From IMG/VR virus record IMGVR_UViG_3300049740_000832: 64,000 nt of DNA; one strand, 5' to 3'. A program made the translations under genes and the position numbers. Below the pieces are notes generated by a model, which saw only the letters and a program-made list of their open reading frames with translations, was not told the origin of the DNA and ran no database searches. Position 1 is the first letter of the stretch, and every line of letters starts with the position of its first letter. Shown here piece after piece: positions 5,333 to 27,409 of the stretch. This stretch comes from a virus.

Positions 5333-5408
5333 ACTATAATCTGAAAACTCGTCTGGGTATAGATATAACTATCCCCAAACAAAACCTTTGACTCTAAGGA
5401 CACCCTCA

Positions 5409-7394
5409 ATGCCCGTAAAGATTGACCGAAACAAAGATGACATCCTTGCAGAATACGCTGTCGGAATGTTAAAAGATTTCTACCTACTAGATTATGAAGA
5501 TTCACCACAGGAAGGTTTTGCAAGAGCAGCAAGGGCGTGGTCAAAATATAGAGAGGAAATAGATGATGCACTCGCACAACGTCTATATGATTATGTTAGT
5601 AATAAGCATTTTATGTTTGCTAGTCCAGTATTATCTAACGCTCCCAACGGAAAGAAAAAAGACAAAGGGATGCCTATCTCTTGTTTCCTCACATATGTCC
5701 CCGATACTCTTGAGGGTCTTATTAGCCATTCTAGTGAGCTTCGGTGGCTTTCTGTTTACGGTGGCGGTGTTGGCGGACATTGGTCTAGTGTGCGAACGGT
5801 CAGTGACATTGCGCCAGGGCCAATCCCATTTCTGCATACGGTAGATGCAGACATGATTGCTTACCGTCAGGGTAAGACACGCAAGGGTTCTTATGCCGCA
5901 TATATGGATATCTCACATCCTGACGTTGTAGAATTTATGAACATGAGAATTCCTACAGGTGATGTGCAAAGAAAGGCGTTGAACCTTCATAACGCTATAA
6001 ATATAACTGATGAGTTCATGGAGTGTGTCAGAGAAGACAAAGACTTTGACCTTCGTGACCCAAAGAATAGTGAAGTAAAAGAAACAGTTAATGCTCGTAA
6101 GTTGTGGGAACGTCTCCTTGAGATTCGTTTTCGAACAGGTGAACCTTATCTTAACTTCATAGATACGGCAAACAATGCGTTACCGCAACCGTTAAAAGAT
6201 AAAGGACTAAAGATTCACGGGTCAAACCTGTGTAATGAGATTCACCTACCAACCAGCGCAGACAGAACTGCGGTGTGTTGCCTGTCATCTCTGAATTTAG
6301 AATACTACGATGAATGGAAAGATACAACTATTGTGCGTGACCTTGTTAGGATGCTCGATAATGTCTTGCAATACTTTATCGACAACGCACCCGACACCAT
6401 TGCCAGAGCAAAATACAGTGCAGCAAGAGAACGGTCAATCGGACTTGGAGCAATGGGATTCCACAGTCTCCTCCAAAAACATGGAGTCGCATGGGAGTCC
6501 GAAGCCGCAAGAGAAATCAACCGAACCGTGTTTGACCACATTAAATCAGAAGCAGTTGCAGAAACTGAACTCCTTGCCCAAGAACGTGGTGAATATCCTG
6601 ATGGCGATGGGTCTGGAAGGCGCAACTCACACTTGCTTGCCATTGCGCCCAACGCAAGTTCAGGAATAATTCTATCAACAAGTCCTTCTATCGAACCGCT
6701 GAAGGCAAATGCATATACTCATCGAACTCGTGCGGGTTCATTCTTGGTAAAGAACAAATACCTCGAACAACTGCTTGATGAGAGAAGTGAGAACACCGAA
6801 TCCACTTGGACATCTATTATTACCAAGAAAGGTTCTGTTCAACATCTACCGTTCCTTACCGAAGGTGAGAAGGCAGTATTCAAGACCGCAGATGAACTTG
6901 ACCAGATGTGGGTGGTGCAACACTCCGCAGAACGTCAACAGTTTGTTTGTCAAGGTCAATCTGTGAACCTGTTCTTCCCGTCTGGTGCGGATAAGTCTTA
7001 TGTAAACAAGGTTCACTATAGTGCATGGGCGAAAGGATTGAAAGGTCTCTATTACCTACGCACCGAATCAAAACAACGGGCAGAGAACGTGTCTGAGAAG
7101 GTAGAACGTGTCGCACTACAAGGTGATATGCGTTCTATCGTCTATGGTAAGTCCGACTGTCCATTCTGTTCTATGGCAAAGGAAGAACTCCGCTTGAGGG
7201 GTATTCCTTTTGATTACATCGACCTGAAAGAGATAGGTAAGACCGCTCGTGAAGTGACAGGCCGAGATGTCAAAACAGTCCCACAGATTTATCTGGAAGG
7301 AGAATATGTGGGCGGATATGAAGAACTTATGGAATACCTAAACAAATCATTAGAAACACAAGAAGACGATGAATGTCGTGCTTGCGAGGGATAA
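5409..7394 (+). CDS. nrdA: class I ribonucleotide reductase alpha subunit with inserted glutaredoxin domain; no ATP cone
   Basis: FASPVLSN, ISCF, SNLCNEI, IAPNAS, GLYYLR motifs; CPFC...TVPQI...GGYEEL Grx domain; terminal CRAC. Confidence 0.95.
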   Translation: MPVKIDRNKDDILAEYAVGMLKDFYLLDYEDSPQEGFARAARAWSKYREEIDDALAQRLYDYVSNKHFMFASPVLSNAPNGKKKDKGMPISCFLTYVPDTLEGLISHSSELRWLSVYGGGVGGHWSSVRTVSDIAPGPIPFLHTVDADMIAYRQGKTRKGSYAAYMDISHPDVVEFMNMRIPTGDVQRKALNLHNAINITDEFMECVREDKDFDLRDPKNSEVKETVNARKLWERLLEIRFRTGEPYLNFIDTANNALPQPLKDKGLKIHGSNLCNEIHLPTSADRTAVCCLSSLNLEYYDEWKDTTIVRDLVRMLDNVLQYFIDNAPDTIARAKYSAARERSIGLGAMGFHSLLQKHGVAWESEAAREINRTVFDHIKSEAVAETELLAQERGEYPDGDGSGRRNSHLLAIAPNASSGIILSTSPSIEPLKANAYTHRTRAGSFLVKNKYLEQLLDERSENTESTWTSIITKKGSVQHLPFLTEGEKAVFKTADELDQMWVVQHSAERQQFVCQGQSVNLFFPSGADKSYVNKVHYSAWAKGLKGLYYLRTESKQRAENVSEKVERVALQGDMRSIVYGKSDCPFCSMAKEELRLRGIPFDYIDLKEIGKTAREVTGRDVKTVPQIYLEGEYVGGYEELMEYLNKSLETQEDDECRACEG

Positions 7395-19891: not shown

Positions 19892-20672
19892 AATGATTTT
19901 CCAAGTGGCGGTAGGTAAACCGTCCAAACTATATGAACACTGCATTGAAAGTGTTGCACAATACTGTGAGAAATATAATATTAAACATGTCGTATTGACT
20001 CAACCCAAACTGCGTATCAAACCTGACATCTTTACCAGTGGACGAAGTGAGGAATCCTATATGAAGTATGGGGGATATCTGCCTATCTATGAGAAGGAGA
20101 ATGCGTTTGAGTATCTGGATGACTATGACCAGATTGCAATCGTAGATGCAGACATCTATATCCGACCAGACGCACCAAATATCTTTGAAGACTTTGGAAC
20201 AGAACATGCGTTTGGTGCGGTATGTGAACGCGAGATGAATATTCAGGATTGGTATAAAAACAAGATTATCAACTACTCGCGTATGCAATACAATCCGCTT
20301 CATCGGAATACCCTTGATTTCAAACCAAACAATCTGGGGTTTGAGTTCTTTAACATGGGTCTCATTCTGTTGAACAGTAAACTCTTCAAACCATACCTCA
20401 AAGGCCAAGACCCACATAGTTTTATCAATCGTATGGAGTTTAAGGACTTTGTTGATGGTGTGGGTGCATGGAAGTGGTCTACCGACCAGACACTACTGAA
20501 CTACTTTCTCAAGAGATATAACATTCCAACTAAACATATGAACGGTAAATGGAATGGTCTGTATAGTGCAGTCGATAATCTGAAGGATTGTCACTTCATT
20601 CATTTCTTCCTAAAAGACAAACTTCCCAATGCTGGTGAGAATGTTGGAGAGTTGATGAAACAAATCGTATAA
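19884..20672 (+). CDS. GT8-like glycosyltransferase
   Basis: IVDAD, FFNMGL, TDQTLLN, KWNG, FIHF. Confidence 0.8.
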   Translation: MNRMIFQVAVGKPSKLYEHCIESVAQYCEKYNIKHVVLTQPKLRIKPDIFTSGRSEESYMKYGGYLPIYEKENAFEYLDDYDQIAIVDADIYIRPDAPNIFEDFGTEHAFGAVCEREMNIQDWYKNKIINYSRMQYNPLHRNTLDFKPNNLGFEFFNMGLILLNSKLFKPYLKGQDPHSFINRMEFKDFVDGVGAWKWSTDQTLLNYFLKRYNIPTKHMNGKWNGLYSAVDNLKDCHFIHFFLKDKLPNAGENVGELMKQIV

Positions 20673-20675
20673 ATA
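20668..20675 (+). promoter_or_regulatory. T4-type late promoter
   Basis: TATAAATA upstream of 20710. Confidence 0.75.
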
Positions 20676-20709
20676 ATGTTATTGTCAATAGAGTGAATAA
20701 GGAACTAAC

Positions 20710-21408
20710 ATGTTAAACCCACAAGAGTTTGTGAAGAAAATTCGCAACGAAAATCAAGCATTGTTCGAAGCATCCAAGATGAACGTCAAGGCATACTTCG
20801 AAGGCGACCTTTCTAAAGAGGAAATGGTTGACCACTTCATTGGTCGCATGGTCAATGAACGTATGAACATGTCTGAAATCTCCGCACAAATCGCAAGTGC
20901 AGACGATGATGCAGACCCAAGAGAATTAGAATTACTTTCAAAACAAGCAGCAGATGAAGCAAAACACTATCGTATGGTCAAGGAAGTTATTGAACATATC
21001 ACTGGTGAAGAAGTAGATGCTGCAAGTGCGATTGCAAAAGAACGCGAAATGGATACTGCCAAAGGTGCATCTCTGTTAGAAAAGTATGACGCAGAGAATG
21101 ACGAGGCAGTCCTCGCCGCATATCAGTTGGTTGCGGAAGGTCGTGCAGAAGCGGTATGGAATCAGATGGCAGATACTATCGAAGATAGTTTCATTTCTGG
21201 TCGTTATCGCGAGATTGCAAAGGACGAAGGTTTCCACAGTGGTATCGGTGCATACAAGTTACGCAAAGTTGCAACCGATGAGAAAACACAGAGTCGTGTT
21301 CTTCGTATTATCGAAGCAATGCGTAAAGACCTGTTTGAAATCTCGTGTGCAAATACAGTCGAAGCAAAAGGTTCACGCGAACTTGTGAACACAGTCTACG
21401 GTTGGTAA
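20710..21408 (+). CDS. ferritin-like diiron protein
   Basis: NE...DEAKH...AEG...DEGFH: two ExxH motifs in a helical bundle. Confidence 0.75.
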   Translation: MLNPQEFVKKIRNENQALFEASKMNVKAYFEGDLSKEEMVDHFIGRMVNERMNMSEISAQIASADDDADPRELELLSKQAADEAKHYRMVKEVIEHITGEEVDAASAIAKEREMDTAKGASLLEKYDAENDEAVLAAYQLVAEGRAEAVWNQMADTIEDSFISGRYREIAKDEGFHSGIGAYKLRKVATDEKTQSRVLRIIEAMRKDLFEISCANTVEAKGSRELVNTVYGW

Positions 21409-21960
21409 ATGAACGTAGGACTCACACAACGAGTCCTCACGCACAACGGACAAGTTCATGACTCTTTAGACCACAACTGGTATCGGTTGTTGAAGGGTCA
21501 TGAACTTATCCCCATCCCAAATCGTGAAGACTTAGATTATGAATCCCTTGCGGAGTCTCTCGACCTTCTCATCGTCACAGGTGGGGATAACGAAGAGATT
21601 CGTATTATCACAGAAGTATCTCTCATAACCGAAATGTCAAGACTGGGTAAACCCATTCTTGGTATCTGTCATGGTGCGTTTCTCCTAACAGAGATGCTTG
21701 GCGGTAGCACGAAGGAAATCGAAGGTCACTATGATACCGAACATCTTGTATATGGAGATGCACCTACCCACATCCGTGTGAACAGTTTTCATAATATTTC
21801 TATTGACAAACAGCCCCCAAATGGTGTATACTTATATATTGATGGGAATGGTAACATTGAGTCTTGGATGAAAGACAACATATGTGCAATTGTCTGGCAT
21901 CCTGAAAGAATGACCAGACCCTTTATACCTGATGAGATACGGAAGGTGACAGGATTATGA
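21409..21960 (+). CDS. class I glutamine amidotransferase-like protein (peptidase C26 type)
   Basis: TGGD, LGICHG, VNSFH, WHPE catalytic triad. Confidence 0.88.
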   Translation: MNVGLTQRVLTHNGQVHDSLDHNWYRLLKGHELIPIPNREDLDYESLAESLDLLIVTGGDNEEIRIITEVSLITEMSRLGKPILGICHGAFLLTEMLGGSTKEIEGHYDTEHLVYGDAPTHIRVNSFHNISIDKQPPNGVYLYIDGNGNIESWMKDNICAIVWHPERMTRPFIPDEIRKVTGL

Positions 21961-22637
21961 TGAAACAGATTGATAATGGAGAGACTTATCAGGTTACCGA
22001 TATTTGGAATTATGATATCCAAGTTATAAGGGGTGTCAATACGACTTATATCAATAACAATAACTCGATAGGAACAAGTTATATTATGGGTAAAGACTGT
22101 AGTGTCCATATGAAGAACGGTTGGTCAGTTGAGACTAACAGTTTCGCAGGGCAGACAGACAATGAGTTCACGGTTGAGACACATAATGATACCTCTGTGT
22201 TTGCTCACATCAAGTTCTATGGTCTGCATCTCAACGATGACCGCATGTTCATACCACATGATAATCCAAAAGGCAACCTATCTTACATGGACGGCGGAAC
22301 GAACACCACCGCAGTCAATCCTGGCCGTCTTGGACTTCCCGTCATCAACTATGTCCACTTCCCCGCAGGGATGAAACAGACTCTCCACACTCATCCAAGT
22401 CAACGCATCGGATTAGTCCTGTCTGGTAAAGGTGAGATTGAACTTGATAATGATGTAATGTTCCCTATCAAGGCGGGGGATTGTTGGGTCATGGAGAGAA
22501 ATGTTTTACATAATTTTATGTGTAATAAGGGTGAGGATGTTACATTATTTGTATTCAGTCCTGACTCTGGAACAGGGCCAACAGATGAAATCAACCCATT
22601 GAAAGTGAGAACCTATGTCGGACAACAACGATTATAA
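21957..22637 (+). CDS. cupin-domain protein
   Basis: QTLHTHPSQRIGLVLSGKG...AGD...LHNF. Confidence 0.75.
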   Translation: MMKQIDNGETYQVTDIWNYDIQVIRGVNTTYINNNNSIGTSYIMGKDCSVHMKNGWSVETNSFAGQTDNEFTVETHNDTSVFAHIKFYGLHLNDDRMFIPHDNPKGNLSYMDGGTNTTAVNPGRLGLPVINYVHFPAGMKQTLHTHPSQRIGLVLSGKGEIELDNDVMFPIKAGDCWVMERNVLHNFMCNKGEDVTLFVFSPDSGTGPTDEINPLKVRTYVGQQRL

Positions 22638-23253
22638 AAAACTATTAATCATAACAGGCCCACAGGGGTCTGGCAATCATCTATTCAGTAAAGTGTTTAG
22701 TTATCATCCATATGTGAGTGGATGGGATTTTGGTGACAAGTATTGGATACCAAGTGACGAAGAACCCTTTGCAGAATGTTGGGTAGACCCATCAAAGACG
22801 AAGAGTATGTTGAAAAGTTCTGCGGTTGTTGCAAACGTCAGTGTGCCTTTTGTGTATGACGGAGTGAAACAAGTTCCAAAGATACAAGAAGTCATGAAGG
22901 AGGCACAAAACGTAGGGTATGATGTTAAGGTCTGTATTGTAGTTCGAGACCGTAATATAAATATGGAACAACAGTTTAGGGTTAGAAACGAATTCACATT
23001 GCCACAAGCACTAGGATATTATTACAAACTAGATGCCGACTTACAGTTCCTTTCTCATGAGTCGTTATATTTGTATGGTGGTGCGTATCTGAAGTGGTTG
23101 TCAAAGGTTCTTGACTTTCCGATTGCATATAATGATGAACGAATTGAGAAAGATATTGCAAAAGACCAAAATGCAAAATATGTGGAGCCTGTTGACTCTC
23201 ACTGGTTGGATGAACAAGTATGGCAAGGGATAAGACCAAAGAATGAACGGTAA
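22615..23253 (+). CDS. P-loop/sulfotransferase-like protein
   Basis: LLIITGPQGSGNHLF; IVVRD; HESL. Confidence 0.55.
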   Translation: MSDNNDYKKLLIITGPQGSGNHLFSKVFSYHPYVSGWDFGDKYWIPSDEEPFAECWVDPSKTKSMLKSSAVVANVSVPFVYDGVKQVPKIQEVMKEAQNVGYDVKVCIVVRDRNINMEQQFRVRNEFTLPQALGYYYKLDADLQFLSHESLYLYGGAYLKWLSKVLDFPIAYNDERIEKDIAKDQNAKYVEPVDSHWLDEQVWQGIRPKNER

Positions 23254-23779
23254 ATACATCTTTGTCACTGGTGCGCCTGGTTCACGATGGAGTGGTTATG
23301 TTGAAGACCACCTATACATTCGTGACGATATAGACAAGAGTGATAGGTCACCTGAACGAGAGTATTGGCATGGTCGTGATGGTTGTAGAGACTTAGTGCA
23401 TAGAGGTGCATACTTTGACCCTGGCATGGAGTTTCGAAATGATGAGAAATATTGGGATAAACCATTTAGTGGTGAAGGTATTCGCATAATCAAGTCTCAT
23501 ACATTTGCTTATCATATATATTGGTTGATGAGATGGAACTGTCCTATTCATCTGGTATATAGAACTAATCAAGAATGTTTTGATTGGTGGCACGAATGTG
23601 GTGGTTGGAATATCAAGTATCCCGACTATAAATGGTATCGAGACGATGACAATATGATAGAACAGATACAAATGCAGAACCTTCTTATCAAAGAATTTGT
23701 TGAAGAAGAAGGTCTTGAAAAACATAATGACGGAAAAAGAGATTATTACATATGGACGCCAAAGACAGAGAATGGTTAA
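23243..23779 (+). CDS. P-loop/sulfotransferase-like protein
   Basis: YIFVTGAPGSRWS; IIKSH; LVYR. Confidence 0.55.
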   Translation: MNGKYIFVTGAPGSRWSGYVEDHLYIRDDIDKSDRSPEREYWHGRDGCRDLVHRGAYFDPGMEFRNDEKYWDKPFSGEGIRIIKSHTFAYHIYWLMRWNCPIHLVYRTNQECFDWWHECGGWNIKYPDYKWYRDDDNMIEQIQMQNLLIKEFVEEEGLEKHNDGKRDYYIWTPKTENG

Positions 23780-24321
23780 AAGATTACTTTACTTACCATT
23801 GGCCCAGTTCACGCACTGCGGGATTGGATGATTATTATTGGACAGGATGGAGATTGATAGATGAAATACAAGAAGGAGAAACCGTCTTGGATGTCGGTTG
23901 CGGGGTTAATCCGTTTAAGAGACATATTAAAGGATTACATGGCATCGATATTACAGACATTGGGAGTGACGAACAAGTCGCAATCGAGGACTATAGACCA
24001 GAAACTAAATTTGATGTTGCTTTTTGCCTCGGCTCTATTAATTTTGGCGGCTGGTCTGAAGTAGTAGAACAAATCAATTCACTGACACGAAGGTGTCTAA
24101 AAGATGAATGTCGAATTTATTGGAGATGTAATCCAGGCCATCGTGACCATGAGAATGAATTAGTCAACCAAGTTCCCTTCTTTAATTGGAATATAAATCA
24201 TCATATCATGTTGACACAAAATACAGGTTTCAAAGTTACAGAATTTATGCCTGATAATAATAGGATGTATGTGAAATGGGAAAGAAAATCTTCGTCCATA
24301 TCCCCAAAAACGGGGGGATGA
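23752..24321 (+). CDS. class I SAM-dependent methyltransferase
   Basis: VLDVGCG; GID; FDVAFC. Confidence 0.8.
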   Translation: MDAKDREWLKDYFTYHWPSSRTAGLDDYYWTGWRLIDEIQEGETVLDVGCGVNPFKRHIKGLHGIDITDIGSDEQVAIEDYRPETKFDVAFCLGSINFGGWSEVVEQINSLTRRCLKDECRIYWRCNPGHRDHENELVNQVPFFNWNINHHIMLTQNTGFKVTEFMPDNNRMYVKWERKSSSISPKTGG

Positions 24322-24965
24322 CAATCAGGAGAAATCCTGAACTGCGACCAAAAGTATTACTCGCAACACCAGAAAATCATATTAATCGTCAGTATACAGA
24401 AGACCTTTTTCGCGTTATGCAAGAAAACCGCGAACATCACGGTTTTGAACATGCAAGGTGGAGAGACTGGAATCAACAGGTTCGAGAAAATCATCGTGCA
24501 TTTGCAATTGTTCGTAACCCGTGGAGTCGAGTTGTATCGCGATTTGAATTTGCAAAAAAGGTAATCTATAAAGAAGATGGTTCTGACCATTTTGGTAGAA
24601 CAGATTATATTGACTGTTCCTCGTTTGAAGCATTCCTTGAAACTCGACACGAATGGGGTGGTAGAAAGTTCTTCTGGCATCGTGCAATCCGTGGGTGGTA
24701 TCCCGCATTGGATTATGTGACTGATGAAAAAGGTAAACTTAGGTGTGACATTCTTAGGTTTGAACACTATGATGATGACGTAAAATCATATCTGGGTGTC
24801 CTATTCAATCCCGAACCTCGCAATGTGACTGGATATAAACAGTCTACATATACTGATTACTATAACGATAAAACAATTCAGATTGTTGCTGACTGGTATA
24901 AAAAAGATATTGACTATTGGGGATTCGACTTTGATAGTGCTGCACAAAGGAACTATTGGAGATGA
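24276..24965 (+). CDS. carbohydrate sulfotransferase (Sulfotransfer_2-like)
   Basis: FVHIPKNGGMTI (5'-PSB), VRNPWSRVVS (3'-PB), RFE, YKKDI...GFDF. Confidence 0.85.
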   Translation: MGKKIFVHIPKNGGMTIRRNPELRPKVLLATPENHINRQYTEDLFRVMQENREHHGFEHARWRDWNQQVRENHRAFAIVRNPWSRVVSRFEFAKKVIYKEDGSDHFGRTDYIDCSSFEAFLETRHEWGGRKFFWHRAIRGWYPALDYVTDEKGKLRCDILRFEHYDDDVKSYLGVLFNPEPRNVTGYKQSTYTDYYNDKTIQIVADWYKKDIDYWGFDFDSAAQRNYWR

Positions 24966-25558
24966 TGGGAAGCCCAATAAACAAAGACTCCGTAAATATT
25001 ATGGGGTTGATAGAACCAAACTCGATAGGCGCAGAAGTGGGCGTCTGGTTTGGAAACTCCTCACAGAAATTCTTGGGTCGAGGAGTGAGAGAACTTCATC
25101 TCGTAGATGCATGGAGTATTGAACCATATAAAGAATCTACAGAACATGGCACATATGAAAACTATCTAGAAAGATATTCCAAGATGTGTGGGGGTAATAC
25201 CGAAAAAGATTTCCAAAAATACTATGATAGTGTTTATAGAACAGTGAAGTCAACAATAGGAACAGACCCTCGTGTTACCATTTATCGAATGAACTCTAAT
25301 GAGTGGTTTGATAGTTTTGATAAGAAACTTGATTGGATTTATGTTGACGGTGACCATTCCTACGAGGGGTGTCTTCGTGACTTGAACAATGCACTAAAGG
25401 TTGTCAGAGTTGGCGGTCTTATTCTTGGAGATGATTATAAATGGCCAGATACAAAATTTGGTAAGACTGGTGTCACTCGAGCGGTAGACAAGTTTTGTTA
25501 TAGTAATGGTTTATTGAAAGAACAACACGGACAAGTTCAGTTTAGTATAAAGGTATAA
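24962..25558 (+). CDS. SAM methyltransferase (Methyltransf_24-like)
   Basis: AEVGVWFG, VDAW, IYVDGDHSYE, GDDY. Confidence 0.85.
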   Translation: MMGSPINKDSVNIMGLIEPNSIGAEVGVWFGNSSQKFLGRGVRELHLVDAWSIEPYKESTEHGTYENYLERYSKMCGGNTEKDFQKYYDSVYRTVKSTIGTDPRVTIYRMNSNEWFDSFDKKLDWIYVDGDHSYEGCLRDLNNALKVVRVGGLILGDDYKWPDTKFGKTGVTRAVDKFCYSNGLLKEQHGQVQFSIKV

Positions 25559-25559
25559 T

Positions 25560-26087
25560 ATGCATCCCTCATCAATCGCAAATATGAAAAGGTGTAGAGA
25601 ACACCTAAATGAAGTTATCGGAAAAGACATCACAGTTTTGGATGTTGGTGGTCGTGCATTGAAAGCAGATAAGGATAGGTCATATCGTCCAATCTGGGAA
25701 GATGTTGCAGAGAAATATCTAATTGCAGACCTTGTGGCAGGATTGAATGTTGACTTACCAATGCCTGGCCCTTATACAATTCCCCTTGAGGACGAGTCTG
25801 TCGATTTGGTTGTGAGTGGTCAAACCCTTGAACATGTCAAGAATCCCTTTCGAAGTGTTACTGAGATGACACGAGTTTTGAAAACGGGTTCACATATTAT
25901 TTTAATTGCACCATCTACTGGCCCTCGACATGATAGTATTGACTGTTGGAGATTTATGGATGACAGTTTCAAGGCAATCGCCGAGGAATGTGGTCTAAAA
26001 GTTGTGTTAGATTATATCGATTTTGGCCCGTGGGAAGAACGGTCTGCAAGATGGAAAGACCATGTTTTCATCGGTAAGAAGAAATGA
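25560..26087 (+). CDS. SAM methyltransferase (Methyltransf_11-like)
   Basis: VLDVGG, DLVVSGQTLEHV, RVLKTG, DCWRF. Confidence 0.85.
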   Translation: MHPSSIANMKRCREHLNEVIGKDITVLDVGGRALKADKDRSYRPIWEDVAEKYLIADLVAGLNVDLPMPGPYTIPLEDESVDLVVSGQTLEHVKNPFRSVTEMTRVLKTGSHIILIAPSTGPRHDSIDCWRFMDDSFKAIAEECGLKVVLDYIDFGPWEERSARWKDHVFIGKKK

Positions 26088-27409
26088 TAAAACTTATATT
26101 GTTTGACCTAGATGGAGTTCTGGTCAATACAAAAAATATACATTTTGATGCATTGAATGAGGCGTTGGGTGAACGTGCAGTCACCCGTGACGAACACTTG
26201 TCCTTGTATGATGGTATGACTACCATGAACAAATTACGTTTCATGGGGTTCTCTGAGTCTGAATCCAAGAAAATATTTTATGACAAACAACTCTATACTT
26301 ATCGAAGACTAGACTCACTTGAAAAAAACAATAATATCATTGATTTATTTTTAGAATTAAAGAAAGAAGGATATGAAATTGGAATTTGTTCTAACGCAAT
26401 TAAAAAGACTGTGGTTAAATGTCTATCCAGAGTTGGTATTACTCACCTATGTGATTTTTTTCTCTGTTCTGGTGATGTAACTAATCCAAAACCACACCCC
26501 GAAATATATTGGAAAGCGATGTCAACTATGGGTGTTCTTCCTGAAGAGACTTTGATTGTTGAGGACTCTCATGTTGGTCTGTTGGCAGCGCATCGGTCTA
26601 GTGCAAATGTGATTAGGGTGAACAGTCCTGATGATGTAAATCTTGGTTTAATAGAAAGAATCAAAGGTCAAACTCCAACTCCTCGATGGAAAGATGAGAA
26701 ACTAAACGTAGTCATACCAATGGCAGGCGCGGGTAGTCGTTTTTCAAATGCGGGATATACTTTTCCTAAACCACTGATTGATGTCAATGGGAAACCAATG
26801 ATTCAAAGAGTTGTAGAGAATATCGCGATTGAAGCAAACTATATTTTCATTGTCCAAAAATCACATCGAGAGAAATACAATCTGGATTCGATGTTGAACA
26901 TGATTGCACCAAACTGCAAGATTGTGGAGATTGAAGGTATGACAGAAGGTGCTGCTTGCACAACTCTACTCGCAAAAGAATATATCAATAATGACTCACC
27001 ACTGTTTATTGCAAACTCTGACCAATATGTAAAATGGGATTCATCACACTTCATGTATAAAATGAAGGAACATGATGTTGATGGTGGTATTGTTACTTTC
27101 AAAGCAACACATCCCAAGTGGTCATATGCACAGACAGATGGTCTAGGTAATGTCGTGAAGGTTGCGGAGAAAGACCCAATCAGTGACAATGCGACTGTTG
27201 GGTTTTACTACTGGAAACGTGGTAGAGATTATGTGTCTTTCTGTGAAGACATGATTGCGCTTGACCAGAGAGTAAATGGTGAGTTTTATGTCTGTCCTGT
27301 ATATAATAATGCGATACGCGAAGGAAAAGGTATTAAGATATATGAGGTTGAAGAGATGTGGGGACTAGGAACTCCTGAAGACCTTGAACAATACTTGAGA
27401 GAGAATTGA
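26084..27409 (+). CDS. HAD phosphatase fused to a sugar-phosphate nucleotidyltransferase
   Basis: FDLDGVL, KPHPE, VEDS; then IPMAGAGSRF...PKPLI, ANSDQ, GLGTPEDL. Confidence 0.9.
   Translation: MIKLILFDLDGVLVNTKNIHFDALNEALGERAVTRDEHLSLYDGMTTMNKLRFMGFSESESKKIFYDKQLYTYRRLDSLEKNNNIIDLFLELKKEGYEIGICSNAIKKTVVKCLSRVGITHLCDFFLCSGDVTNPKPHPEIYWKAMSTMGVLPEETLIVEDSHVGLLAAHRSSANVIRVNSPDDVNLGLIERIKGQTPTPRWKDEKLNVVIPMAGAGSRFSNAGYTFPKPLIDVNGKPMIQRVVENIAIEANYIFIVQKSHREKYNLDSMLNMIAPNCKIVEIEGMTEGAACTTLLAKEYINNDSPLFIANSDQYVKWDSSHFMYKMKEHDVDGGIVTFKATHPKWSYAQTDGLGNVVKVAEKDPISDNATVGFYYWKRGRDYVSFCEDMIALDQRVNGEFYVCPVYNNAIREGKGIKIYEVEEMWGLGTPEDLEQYLREN

What the first reader, a model, noticed from the sequence alone, without database searches (positions are those of the whole stretch)
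20668..24321. Late-promoter sub-operon resembling a small-molecule tailoring pathway: diiron enzyme, amidotransferase, cupin, two P-loop proteins, methyltransferase
Seen: its own TATAAATA and RBS are followed by six abutting or overlapping genes: ferritin-like diiron (two ExxH), class I GATase (C-H-E triad intact), cupin (HTH...H), two divergent P-loop/sulfotransferase-like proteins and a SAM methyltransferase. None is a glycosyltransferase, unlike the flanking genes. Established: ferritin-like diiron enzymes catalyse N-oxygenation, desaturation, hydroxylation and deformylation, and stand-alone GATase/C26 proteins supply ammonia or remove gamma-glutamyl groups. Inference: a phage-encoded pathway making an unusual substituent or metabolite late in infection, for virion, glycan or DNA decoration or for signalling. 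I cannot match it to a known pathway.
Basis: partly seen in the sequence, partly recalled or inferred. Interest (0 to 1): 0.78.

Follow-up and report, generated by a model that had tools for sequence, protein, structure and literature searches.

The report
Phage diiron–sulfotransferase tailoring gene cassette
A late-transcribed block of six enzyme genes in an uncultured marine T4-like phage is a real, widely conserved and mobile cassette (iron oxygenases, a gamma-glutamyl-hydrolase-type amidotransferase, two sulfotransferase-fold proteins, a methyltransferase) whose product is unknown and which matches no described pathway.

Summary
Six abutting or overlapping + strand ORFs (20710-24321) follow an exact TATAAATA and an AAGGA ribosome site.

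The two "P-loop" proteins are better described as sulfotransferase-like. PL1 is so by fold: its best solved matches are tyrosylprotein and olefin-synthase sulfotransferases, Z 11-12. PL2 is so by motifs only.

Five of the six genes (diiron protein, amidotransferase, PL1, PL2, methyltransferase) recur together in many divergent uncultured phage lineages. Eight of the 12 well-flanked lineages that lack the glycosyltransferase island still carry most of them. Two Oxalobacteraceae chromosomes carry a version without the amidotransferase. The cupin is optional, and a 2-oxoglutarate-oxygenase-like gene often stands in the cassettes that lack it.

No cultured phage record has the diiron protein, PL1 or the cupin. 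PL2 matches only two uncultured single-cell virus contigs.

My best reading (about 0.4) is oxidative tailoring followed by sulfation and methylation of a small acceptor. In this phage the cassette is wired into a late glycan-decoration island. A Campylobacter-type O-methyl-phosphoramidate pathway is unlikely, because related genomes have no glutamine kinase.

First-stage notes of this scan flagged the same cassette on other genomes.

The parts
20668..20675 (+). T4-type late-promoter-like box TATAAATA in the 37-nt gap before the first gene
   Evidence: Exact match. The octamer occurs 15 times against 3.8 expected in the window. It is positionally conserved upstream of the diiron gene in 38 of 38 loci of the window's clade. 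Transcription itself was not tested.
20710..21408 (+). FERR: ferritin-like diiron-carboxylate protein, a new sequence family near DUF455/MiaE; presumed oxygenase
   Evidence: No Pfam, NCBIfam or PDB sequence hit. Ligands E50, E83xxH86, E143 and E173xxH176 are invariant. The model has pLDDT 93.6 and is a helical bundle with one ligand set on each of four core helices. Best structural matches are an ADO-like protein (Z 15.3), CADD (14.6) and MiaE (TM 0.68/0.72). Of 20 remote relatives, 13 hit DUF455 weakly.
21409..21960 (+). GAT: stand-alone class I glutamine amidotransferase of the Peptidase C26 (gamma-glutamyl hydrolase) type
   Evidence: Pfam Peptidase_C26 scores 45.1 bits and GATase 39.1 bits, both above cut-off. 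The C87/H164/E166 triad is invariant. The profile's best PDB hit is Lin1909 (1e-16); SpuA, GGP1 and PuuD also match. It sits next to FERR in 83 of 85 loci.
21957..22637 (+). CUPIN: 3-His cupin with an uncharacterised N-terminal half; an optional member of the cassette
   Evidence: Cupin_2 scores 44 bits at residues 132-199. H144, H146 and H185 are invariant and the C-terminal 120 residues are highly conserved. It is present in 40 of 85 loci and is absent from L041-L043 although they carry the island.
22615..23253 (+). PL1: sulfotransferase-fold protein with a lysine-free P-loop GPQGSGNH
   Evidence: The model has pLDDT 93.4. VIA-align best matches are TPST-2 (Z 11.7), the OLS sulfotransferase domain (11.3) and TPST-1 (11.1); kinases reach at most 9.2. 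Foldseek gives TPST-1 at E 1e-4. Invariant residues include G15, Q17, G18, G20, N21, H22, R111, Q119, R122 and E149. No Pfam hit.
23243..23779 (+). PL2: second, unrelated sulfotransferase-like protein with a PGS(K/R)WS loop, an IKSH motif and an RND motif
   Evidence: Invariant P12, G13, S14, W16, S17, S85, H86, W115 and W116; K84 and R107 are nearly invariant. Homologues hit Pfam Sulfotransfer_3 below cut-off: L002 at E 1.3e-3 and Janthinobacterium at E 0.004. The resemblance to cytosolic sulfotransferase motifs rests on my own knowledge. The fold was not modelled.
23752..24321 (+). MT6: class I SAM-dependent methyltransferase-like protein
   Evidence: The VLDVGCG motif is conserved: D47/V48/G49 in at least 90% of rows, C50 and G51 invariant. 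Pfam Methyltransf_23 scores only 16.5 bits against a cut-off of 27. PDB profile hits are generic methyltransferases. It travels with FERR in 65 of 85 loci, often divergently upstream.

Best explanation
This is a self-contained, horizontally mobile tailoring cassette of uncultured aquatic myovirus-size phages, transcribed from its own T4-type late promoter. That it is a conserved unit has about 0.85 confidence. The chemistry below has about 0.4.

Proposed mechanism (every step is inferred from family and fold; none is shown):
1. The diiron protein FERR, helped by a second metallo-oxygenase, hydroxylates or N-oxygenates a small acceptor. The second oxygenase is the 3-His cupin here and often a 2-oxoglutarate-type oxygenase in other phages.
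2. The C26-type amidotransferase GAT removes a gamma-glutamyl group from an intermediate, or hydrolyses glutamine as a nitrogen source.
3. PL2 (with a catalytic-His-type motif) and PL1 transfer sulfate from a 3'-phosphonucleotide donor, most simply host PAPS, onto the new hydroxyl or amino groups.
4. MT6 methylates the product.

In this phage the cassette is inserted in an 18-kb late island of glycosyltransferases, a carbamoyltransferase, Sulfotransfer_2 enzymes, methyltransferases and a sugar-nucleotidyltransferase. The acceptor or the final destination here is therefore most likely a sugar-borne substituent of a glycan made late in infection. In other phages and in bacteria the same cassette works without any glycosyltransferase.
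For: Unit:
- Among 85 loci, FERR is accompanied by GAT in 83, MT6 in 65, PL2 in 64 and PL1 in 62.
- After collapsing to 32 lineages (below 90% FERR identity), 20 have full flanks. Of these, 19 have GAT, 16 MT6, 15 PL2 and 14 PL1. Of the 12 with no island gene nearby, 8 keep MT6 and PL2 and 6 keep PL1.
- Gene order is shuffled between lineages (MT6 divergent upstream, PL1 duplicated, GAT moved) while membership is kept.
- Massilia and Janthinobacterium chromosomes (60-63% GC) hold FERR-CUPIN-PL1 facing a PL2-MT6 operon. The block is conserved between the two genera while its flanks differ.

Oxygenases: diiron ligands, cupin histidines and the HxD...H...R set of the substitute gene c21 are invariant.

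Sulfate transfer:
- PL1 has the sulfotransferase fold. PL2 has the motifs and weak Sulfotransfer_3 hits.
- Atlas neighbours of both carry sulfotransferase Pfam families on 11-23% of their members, and on 96% in one cluster.
- An APS_kinase gene above Pfam's cut-off directly follows the cassette in one phage. An APS-kinase-like fusion protein lies inside it in four others.

GAT: it belongs to the gamma-glutamyl-hydrolase neighbourhood (Lin1909, SpuA, GGP1, PuuD).

Late and glycan context: the promoter evidence and the island content.
Against: - No enzyme activity, substrate or product is known for any of the six families.
- FERR could be a non-oxygenase ferritin-like protein. Its fold matches are spread over many helical-bundle families.
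- PL1 lacks the lysine or arginine that PAPS sulfotransferases use in the 5'-phosphosulfate loop, so it may bind another donor or be non-catalytic.
- PL2's fold was not modelled, and profile comparison with three true Sulfotransfer_3 proteins was insignificant.
- A clade of phages keeps only FERR and GAT, and the bacteria lack GAT. The steps are therefore separable and the linear scheme may be wrong.
- The 'Sulfatase'-family gene of the bacterial block has Thr, not Cys/Ser-x-P-x-R, at the nucleophile position (the reading of that motif is my own knowledge). It points to phosphoryl rather than sulfate chemistry.
- A secreted TctC-type binding protein inside the cassette in some phages fits import and conversion of a metabolite better than glycan decoration.
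Confidence: 0.4

Rival explanations
1. Import-and-convert auxiliary metabolism. The cassette processes a small carboxylate or organosulfur or organonitrogen compound taken up from the water, either catabolising it or converting it to a usable nutrient or cofactor, to boost the infected cell. It does not decorate anything.
For: - A TctC-family binding protein with a clear signal peptide sits between GAT and PL2 in 5 of the 12 lineages without island genes.
- An SsuA/NMT1-type binding protein flanks the bacterial block in both genera.
- The cassette occurs without glycosyltransferases.
- A remote FERR relative lies among amide/urea uptake and formamidase genes.
Against: - Sulfotransferase-fold enzymes and a methyltransferase are group-adding enzymes and are unusual in catabolism.
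- Transcription from a late promoter, shortly before lysis, suits a nutrient pathway poorly.
- In the window's clade the cassette always sits inside the glycan island.
Confidence: 0.15
2. Protein post-translational modification. The enzymes hydroxylate, sulfate (tyrosine-sulfotransferase-like), methylate and deamidate a virion or host protein late in infection.
For: - PL1's best solved matches are tyrosylprotein sulfotransferases.
- GAT alone also matches DJ-1/PfpI-type proteins.
- The late promoter fits virion-protein timing.
- Baseplate and fibre genes lie downstream in the window.
Against: - No conserved candidate substrate gene or small precursor ORF travels with the cassette.
- No collagen-like repeats are nearby.
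- Chromosomal copies in free-living bacteria lie among housekeeping genes.
- The Z scores of TPST, OLS and carbohydrate sulfotransferases are tied within about 2 units.
Confidence: 0.12
3. An O-methyl-phosphoramidate-type pathway as in the Campylobacter jejuni capsule. GAT acts as gamma-glutamyl-CDP-amidate hydrolase. The sulfotransferase-fold proteins transfer phosphoramidate from the PAPS-like donor 3'-phospho-CDP-amidate. MT6 methylates it.
For: - The best NCBIfam hit of GAT and of its L002 homologue is NF045546, full length, with E 1e-15 and 8e-18 against 3.5e-7 and 6e-10 for the next family.
- APS-kinase-like genes occur in some cassettes. In C. jejuni, Cj1415-Cj1418 together make the 3'-phosphorylated donor (PMC11800397). 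That Cj1415 itself is an APS-kinase homologue is my own recollection.
- The donor resembles PAPS, which would suit sulfotransferase folds.
Against: - GAT scores 58 bits against the curated cut-off of 250. The model also rings below cut-off in all 14 control genomes, so the hit is not diagnostic.
- No PPDK_N domain (my stand-in for the glutamine kinase Cj1418) occurs in five large related phage records, one of them complete.
- No cytidylyltransferase travels with the cassette.
- The bacterial version lacks GAT altogether.
Confidence: 0.07
4. Nucleic-acid modification. The cassette modifies phage DNA bases or tRNA, for example by MiaE-like hydroxylation followed by group transfer.
For: - FERR's nearest named structural family in the Atlas is the tRNA hydroxylase MiaE (TM 0.68/0.72), and two remote relatives hit MiaE_2.
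- MT6 gives weak hits to CmoB and rRNA methyltransferases.
- The bacterial block includes a LigT-type 2H phosphoesterase.
Against: - All these hits are far below family thresholds.
- No DNA-binding, base-flipping, transglycosylase or nucleotide-kinase partner is conserved.
- Sulfated nucleic-acid bases are not known (my own knowledge).
Confidence: 0.06
5. There is no common function. Unrelated accessory genes merely accumulate together in a hyperplastic region.
For: The region is the hypervariable host-recognition region described for pelagimyophages (PMC7029224). The cupin, TctC, c21 and kinase genes come and go.
Against: The same five families stay together despite rearranged order, at 30-70% identity, in different genome neighbourhoods and in two bacterial genera.
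Confidence: 0.05

Closest known systems
Campylobacter jejuni O-methyl phosphoramidate pathway (Cj1415-Cj1418 plus transferases Cj1421/Cj1422; PMC11800397)
   Same: It has a stand-alone class I amidotransferase acting as a gamma-glutamyl hydrolase and a PAPS-like 3'-phosphonucleotide donor. Methyltransferase genes lie in the same cluster (my own recollection). The modification decorates a surface glycan.
   Different: The cassette has no glutamine kinase or cytidylyltransferase. GAT scores 58 bits against the family cut-off of 250. C. jejuni has no diiron or cupin oxygenase in its pathway.
Nod-factor and O-antigen decoration enzymes (NodH sulfotransferase, NodS methyltransferase, NodU carbamoyltransferase; my own knowledge, with NodU as the best NCBIfam hit of the island's carbamoyltransferase)
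   Same: Sulfation, methylation and carbamoylation of an oligosaccharide by clustered tailoring enzymes. This fits the window's island as a whole.
   Different: Those systems have no diiron, cupin or amidotransferase trio. The cassette also occurs without any glycosyltransferase.
Pathways that pair an iron oxygenase with a gamma-glutamyl-trimming amidotransferase: the glucosinolate core (GGP1 plus SOT sulfotransferases) and ergothioneine (EgtB/EgtC/EgtD); my own knowledge
   Same: The logic is the same: oxidation, use of glutathione or gamma-glutamyl-cysteine, removal of gamma-glutamate by an amidotransferase-fold hydrolase, then sulfation or methylation. The GAT profile hits GGP1 at 9e-7.
   Different: The oxygenase families differ (P450 or sulfoxide synthase against ferritin-like and cupin). 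No C-S lyase or glutathione transferase is in the cassette. The resemblance is in logic only.
SznF of streptozotocin biosynthesis (diiron domain plus 3-His cupin domain, with methyltransferase SznE); my own knowledge
   Same: A diiron oxygenase works with a 3-His cupin and a SAM methyltransferase on a small nitrogenous substrate. SznF appears among FERR's structural matches (Z 10.6).
   Different: SznF's diiron domain is haem-oxygenase-like with a different ligand pattern, whereas FERR has the ferritin-type E/ExxH x2 set. The proteins here are separate and the cupin is optional.
DUF455 / MiaE branch of the ferritin-like superfamily
   Same: Four-helix diiron core with the same ligand pattern. 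Remote FERR relatives hit DUF455 (13 of 20) and MiaE_2 (2). MiaE is the nearest named Atlas fold.
   Different: FERR itself hits no Pfam model. Identity to those relatives is 17-26%. It has extra N- and C-terminal helices and an invariant C-terminal YGW.
Host-recognition / LPS-gene hypervariable region of pelagimyophages (PMC7029224)
   Same: The same kind of phage: RNR is 66% identical to Melnitz and 77% to phage C48C1, with T4-like baseplate genes. The same kind of region: GT8-rich, hypervariable and next to tail genes.
   Different: That paper does not mention sulfotransferases, ferritin-like proteins, amidotransferases, cupins or methyltransferases. The cassette is absent from cultured phages of the group.

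Membership tests
Ferritin-like diiron-carboxylate superfamily (FERR) | Two E...ExxH ligand sets on four core helices | tested here: met
   E50, E83/H86, E143 and E173/H176 are invariant in 15 relatives and kept in relatives at 17-26% identity. In the model they lie on helices 36-62, 70-98, 132-156 and 160-187.
Ferritin-like diiron-carboxylate superfamily (FERR) | Membership of a curated family (Pfam or NCBIfam score above cut-off) | tested here: not met
   No Pfam or NCBIfam hit at E up to 0.1, and no PDB sequence hit. Only remote relatives hit DUF455 weakly (best 2.8e-6).
Class I glutamine amidotransferase / Peptidase C26 (GAT) | Cys-His-Glu triad and Pfam score above cut-off | tested here: met
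   C87, H164 and E166 are invariant. Peptidase_C26 scores 45.1 bits (cut-off 20.5) and GATase 39.1 (cut-off 22.8).
Gamma-glutamyl-CDP-amidate hydrolase (NF045546, Cj1417) | Equivalog score of at least 250 bits | tested here: not met
   58.3 bits. Relatives score 40-69 bits, and the model rings below cut-off in 14 of 14 control genomes.
O-methyl phosphoramidate pathway | An L-glutamine kinase (PPDK_N-type ATP-binding domain) in the same genome | tested here: not met
   PF01326 is absent from five related phage records, including a complete 149-kb genome, while it rings in 13 of 14 controls. The window's own full genome is not held. That Cj1418 carries this domain is my own recollection.
Cupin_2 metal-binding cupins (CUPIN) | Pfam score above cut-off and conserved metal-binding histidines | tested here: met
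   Cupin_2 scores 44 bits (cut-off 27.2). H144, H146 and H185 are invariant. The usual Glu position is Q, H or D, so this is a 3-His type site.
PAPS-dependent sulfotransferases (PL1) | Sulfotransferase fold | tested here: met
   TPST-2 Z 11.7 (167 residues aligned, rmsd 4.2), OLS sulfotransferase Z 11.3 (166 residues, rmsd 3.2) and TPST-1 Z 11.1. P-loop kinases reach at most Z 9.2. Foldseek gives TPST-1 at E 1e-4.
PAPS-dependent sulfotransferases (PL1) | Lys or Arg in the 5'-phosphosulfate-binding loop | tested here: not met
   The loop is the invariant GPQG(S/A)GNH with no basic residue. That a basic residue defines the family is my own knowledge.
PAPS-dependent sulfotransferases (PL2) | 5'-PSB loop, catalytic His and 3'-phosphate-binding R-x motifs; Pfam membership | tested here: inconclusive
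   PGS(K/R)WS, IKSH and RN(D) are conserved. Only sub-threshold Sulfotransfer_3 hits were found in two homologues. hhalign against three true members gave probability 4%. The fold was not modelled.
Class I SAM-dependent methyltransferases (MT6) | Glycine-rich SAM motif I and Pfam score above cut-off | tested here: inconclusive
   The VLDVGCG motif and downstream acidic residues are conserved. Methyltransf_23 scores 16.5 bits against a cut-off of 27. PDB profile hits are only generic methyltransferases.
T4-type late promoter | TATAAATA box a short distance upstream of the gene, enriched in the genome | tested here: met
   Actual late transcription cannot be tested with these tools.

The most novel reading that the evidence does not exclude
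The cassette encodes an undescribed biosynthetic route, shared by abundant uncultured aquatic phages and a few Oxalobacteraceae. In it a new ferritin-like diiron oxygenase family, with a cupin or a 2-oxoglutarate oxygenase, makes an N- or O-hydroxylated intermediate from a glutamine- or gamma-glutamyl-derived precursor. Two new sulfotransferase-fold families, one without the canonical lysine, then load it with sulfate or another group from a 3'-phosphonucleotide donor. The result would be a new class of charged, methylated substituent or metabolite that phages make late in infection.
Probability: 0.3. Interest if true: 0.8.

Novelty: new variant of a known kind. Interest (0 to 1): 0.62.

Why it matters
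Phage hypervariable regions are usually written off as "LPS genes". Here a defined, portable five- to six-gene cassette built from enzyme families without any curated model (FERR, PL1, PL2, c21) recurs in hundreds of metagenomic contigs. About 2,270 FERR relatives were found among 5.8 billion proteins, and 394 viral contigs carry one. No cultured phage has the diiron protein, PL1 or the cupin.

If it makes a sulfated and methylated group or metabolite, it would add a new chemistry to phage-host interaction in very abundant marine and freshwater bacteria. It would also supply new oxygenase and sulfotransferase families for enzymology.

The cultivable Massilia and Janthinobacterium strains that carry the block make the question directly testable by knock-out and metabolomics.

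Tried and rejected
- Co-folding FERR with GAT gave no verdict. It says nothing about binding.
- Profile comparison of PL1 with PL2 aligned only the P-loop (probability 20%), so they are not detectable paralogues.
- PDB sequence and profile searches gave nothing for FERR or PL2. For c21, the cupin and MT6 they gave only non-significant or generic hits.
- Foldseek of FERR against the PDB gave only weak rows, E above 0.02.
- The idea that GT25 enzymes and hydroxylases modify collagen-like fibres was dropped. No G-X-Y repeats occur in the window or in 85 loci.
- The NF045546 lead was tested with controls and found non-specific.
- Megablast and tblastn against 50,697 phage records found no FERR, PL1 or cupin. 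PL2 matched only two single-cell viral contigs, which lack the cassette.
- No fused FERR forms exist among the 111 relatives, apart from one 1586-residue protein with a marginal partial match at E 9e-4.
- The 'Sulfatase' gene of the bacterial block was considered as support for sulfate chemistry. I rejected it because it has a Thr-type nucleophile region.
- The 409-aa minus-strand ORF in the bacterial block looks like an antisense artefact (Arg/Ala-rich).
- Papers on pelagimyophages and on DUF455 gave no functional lead.

Full report
**What is there**

The window is part of an uncultured T4-like marine myovirus.
- Baseplate and tail genes lie at 45-59 kb.
- Its class I RNR alpha subunit is 77% identical to that of phage C48C1 and 66% to that of the OM43 phage Melnitz.
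- The nearest held record is an IMG/VR contig at 95% nucleotide identity.
- TATAAATA occurs 15 times against 3.8 expected.

Between 13974 and 31951 lies a + strand island. It encodes a NodU-like carbamoyltransferase, a radical-SAM/SPASM protein, three GT25 and two GT8 glycosyltransferases, two Sulfotransfer_2 proteins, two further methyltransferases (24956-26087) and a HAD-sugar-nucleotidyltransferase fusion.

The finding sits in the middle of this island. After TATAAATA (20668) and an AAGGA site come six ORFs that abut or overlap by 4-28 nt. The string of overlapping ORFs continues past 24321, and no terminator-like site lies at that boundary.

**The six proteins**

- *FERR (20710-21408).* It has no Pfam, NCBIfam or PDB sequence match. 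It keeps an invariant E / ExxH / E / ExxH ligand set. It folds with pLDDT 93.6 into a helical bundle with one ligand set on each of four core helices. Structural matches are spread over ferritin-like and haem-oxygenase-like oxygenases: ADO-like Z 15.3, CADD 14.6, HrmI 13.7, PaaC 12.9 and MiaE TM 0.68/0.72. The family is small, with 111 clusters at 50% identity among 1.84 billion representatives. Thirteen of 20 remote relatives touch DUF455.
- *GAT (21409-21960).* A class I amidotransferase of the Peptidase C26 type with an invariant Cys-His-Glu triad. Its profile is closest to Lin1909, SpuA, GGP1 and PuuD, which are gamma-glutamyl hydrolases.
- *CUPIN (21957-22637).* A 3-His Cupin_2 protein.
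- *PL1 (22615-23253).* Its loop is GPQGSGNH, with no Walker lysine. It models at pLDDT 93.4 as a sulfotransferase fold: TPST-2 Z 11.7, OLS sulfotransferase 11.3, kinases at most 9.2.
- *PL2 (23243-23779).* It is unrelated to PL1 beyond the loop. It carries PGS(K/R)WS, IKSH and RND motifs, which I recognise as the 5'-PSB loop, catalytic-His and 3'-PB motifs of cytosolic sulfotransferases. Two homologues give sub-threshold Sulfotransfer_3 hits.
- *MT6 (23752-24321).* It has a class I SAM motif but scores below Pfam's cut-off.

**Is it a unit?**

Yes. FERR has about 2,270 relatives in a 5.8-billion-protein collection, and 394 viral contigs encode one.

In 85 fetched loci, GAT accompanies FERR in 83, MT6 in 65, PL2 in 64, PL1 in 62 and the cupin in 40.

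Collapsed to 32 lineages, 20 have full flanks:
- 19 have GAT, 16 MT6, 15 PL2 and 14 PL1.
- Twelve of them have no island gene nearby, yet 8 keep MT6 and PL2 and 6 keep PL1.

Gene order is rearranged between lineages (MT6 divergent upstream, PL1 duplicated, GAT displaced) while membership persists.

Optional members are:
- a 2-oxoglutarate-oxygenase-like protein (c21; invariant HxD...H...R), which often stands in cassettes that lack the cupin;
- a TctC-family binding protein with a signal peptide;
- APS-kinase-like genes.

A well-supported FERR clade keeps only FERR and GAT.

Two Oxalobacteraceae chromosomes (Massilia atriviolacea and Janthinobacterium sp., 60-63% GC) hold FERR-CUPIN-PL1 opposite an operon of LigT-like phosphoesterase, alkaline-phosphatase-family protein, PL2 and MT6. 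They have no GAT. Their flanks are non-conserved housekeeping genes.

TATAAATA precedes FERR in all 38 loci of the window's clade.

No cultured phage among 50,697 records has FERR, PL1 or the cupin.

**What it most likely does**

The enzyme set reads as oxidation (FERR plus cupin or c21), handling of a glutamine or gamma-glutamyl group (GAT), transfer of a group from a 3'-phosphonucleotide donor (PL2, PL1) and methylation (MT6).

The simplest donor is PAPS. This is supported by the sulfotransferase fold and motifs and by APS-kinase genes embedded in some cassettes.

In this phage the cassette is part of a late glycan-decorating island whose other enzymes add carbamoyl, sulfate and methyl groups. 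A sugar-borne substituent is therefore the likeliest destination here.

I give the whole scheme about 0.4, and the statement that this is one functional cassette about 0.85. All chemical steps are inferred.

**Rivals**

- *Campylobacter-type O-methyl-phosphoramidate route.* It is attractive because GAT's best NCBIfam hit is Cj1417. But the score is 58 bits against a cut-off of 250, and the model rings in every control genome. No glutamine-kinase-type domain exists in five related genomes, one of them complete. No cytidylyltransferase is conserved.
- *Import and conversion of a metabolite.* The secreted binding proteins favour this reading.
- *Protein modification.* The TPST-like fold and the late timing favour it, but no conserved substrate travels with the cassette.
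- *Nucleic-acid modification.* It rests only on weak MiaE and CmoB resemblances.
- *Chance co-location.* The synteny census excludes it.

**Relation to what is known**

The pelagimyophage literature describes the hypervariable, GT8-rich host-recognition region but none of these six gene types. I found no paper on this combination.

First-stage notes of this scan had flagged the same cassette on several other genomes. One noted the Cj1417 resemblance and the missing kinase, and another the TctC variant. I checked both points here.

**Verdict**

This is a real, conserved, mobile and uncharacterised tailoring cassette made of new sequence families within known enzyme superfamilies. I rate it a new variant of a known kind (phage auxiliary tailoring genes). 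It is of good interest and is directly testable in cultivable bacteria that carry it.

Noticed in passing
window 22956-22963: A second exact TATAAATA lies inside the PL1 coding sequence, about 290 nt upstream of the PL2 start. It could be an internal late promoter or chance.
   Followed up: no
L002:11254-12228 (also L047, L059, L079, L082, L084, L085): A TctC/Bug-family solute-binding protein with a clear signal peptide is encoded inside the cassette of other phages, without TctA/TctB. It looks like a phage binding protein that would use a host tripartite tricarboxylate transporter.
   Followed up: partly
L002:12857-13528 and 13 other lineages (alignment A4): A family of about 222 residues with no Pfam match has an invariant HxD...H...R pattern typical of Fe(II)/2-oxoglutarate oxygenases. 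It follows PL2 or GAT in many cassettes and often stands where the cupin is absent.
   Followed up: partly
L096 (G005:C1:97979-98239); L064:6317-7171: An APS_kinase gene above Pfam's cut-off directly follows the cassette in one 215-kb phage contig. In four other loci a fusion of an APS-kinase-like P-loop domain with an NMN-adenylyltransferase-like HxGH domain sits between PL1 and PL2.
   Followed up: partly
L088:2995-12215 and L089:5796-12247: A bacterial version of the cassette occurs in Massilia atriviolacea and Janthinobacterium sp. It includes a LigT-type 2H phosphoesterase and a soluble 'Sulfatase'-family protein whose nucleophile region has Thr rather than Cys/Ser-x-P-x-R, which suggests phosphoryl rather than sulfate-ester chemistry.
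   Followed up: partly
L005, L066, L073, L074, L081: A well-supported FERR clade (100/99) keeps only the FERR-GAT pair. In L005 the pair is followed by RpiB and a phosphoribosyltransferase, and a CTP_transf_like gene lies upstream. This may be a different use of the pair.
   Followed up: no
L087 (contig binned as a Nitrosopumilaceae MAG): CUPIN-PL1-FERR-GAT lie on a 33% GC contig at 60-75% identity to phage copies. This is probably a viral contig mis-binned into an archaeal MAG, or a virus of that archaeon.
   Followed up: no
window 5388-7394: The ribonucleotide reductase alpha subunit carries a C-terminal glutaredoxin domain (residues 585-641) fused in frame.
   Followed up: no
window 26084-27409: A fusion of a beta-phosphoglucomutase-like HAD domain with a sugar-1-phosphate nucleotidyltransferase domain lies within the island. 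It would make an activated sugar in one protein.
   Followed up: no
L097:4256-4939: A remote FERR relative (about 20% identity, ligands kept) sits beside an amide/urea-type periplasmic binding protein, a two-domain copper oxidase, an AmiS/UreI channel and a formamidase. This hints that the wider family handles small nitrogen compounds.
   Followed up: no
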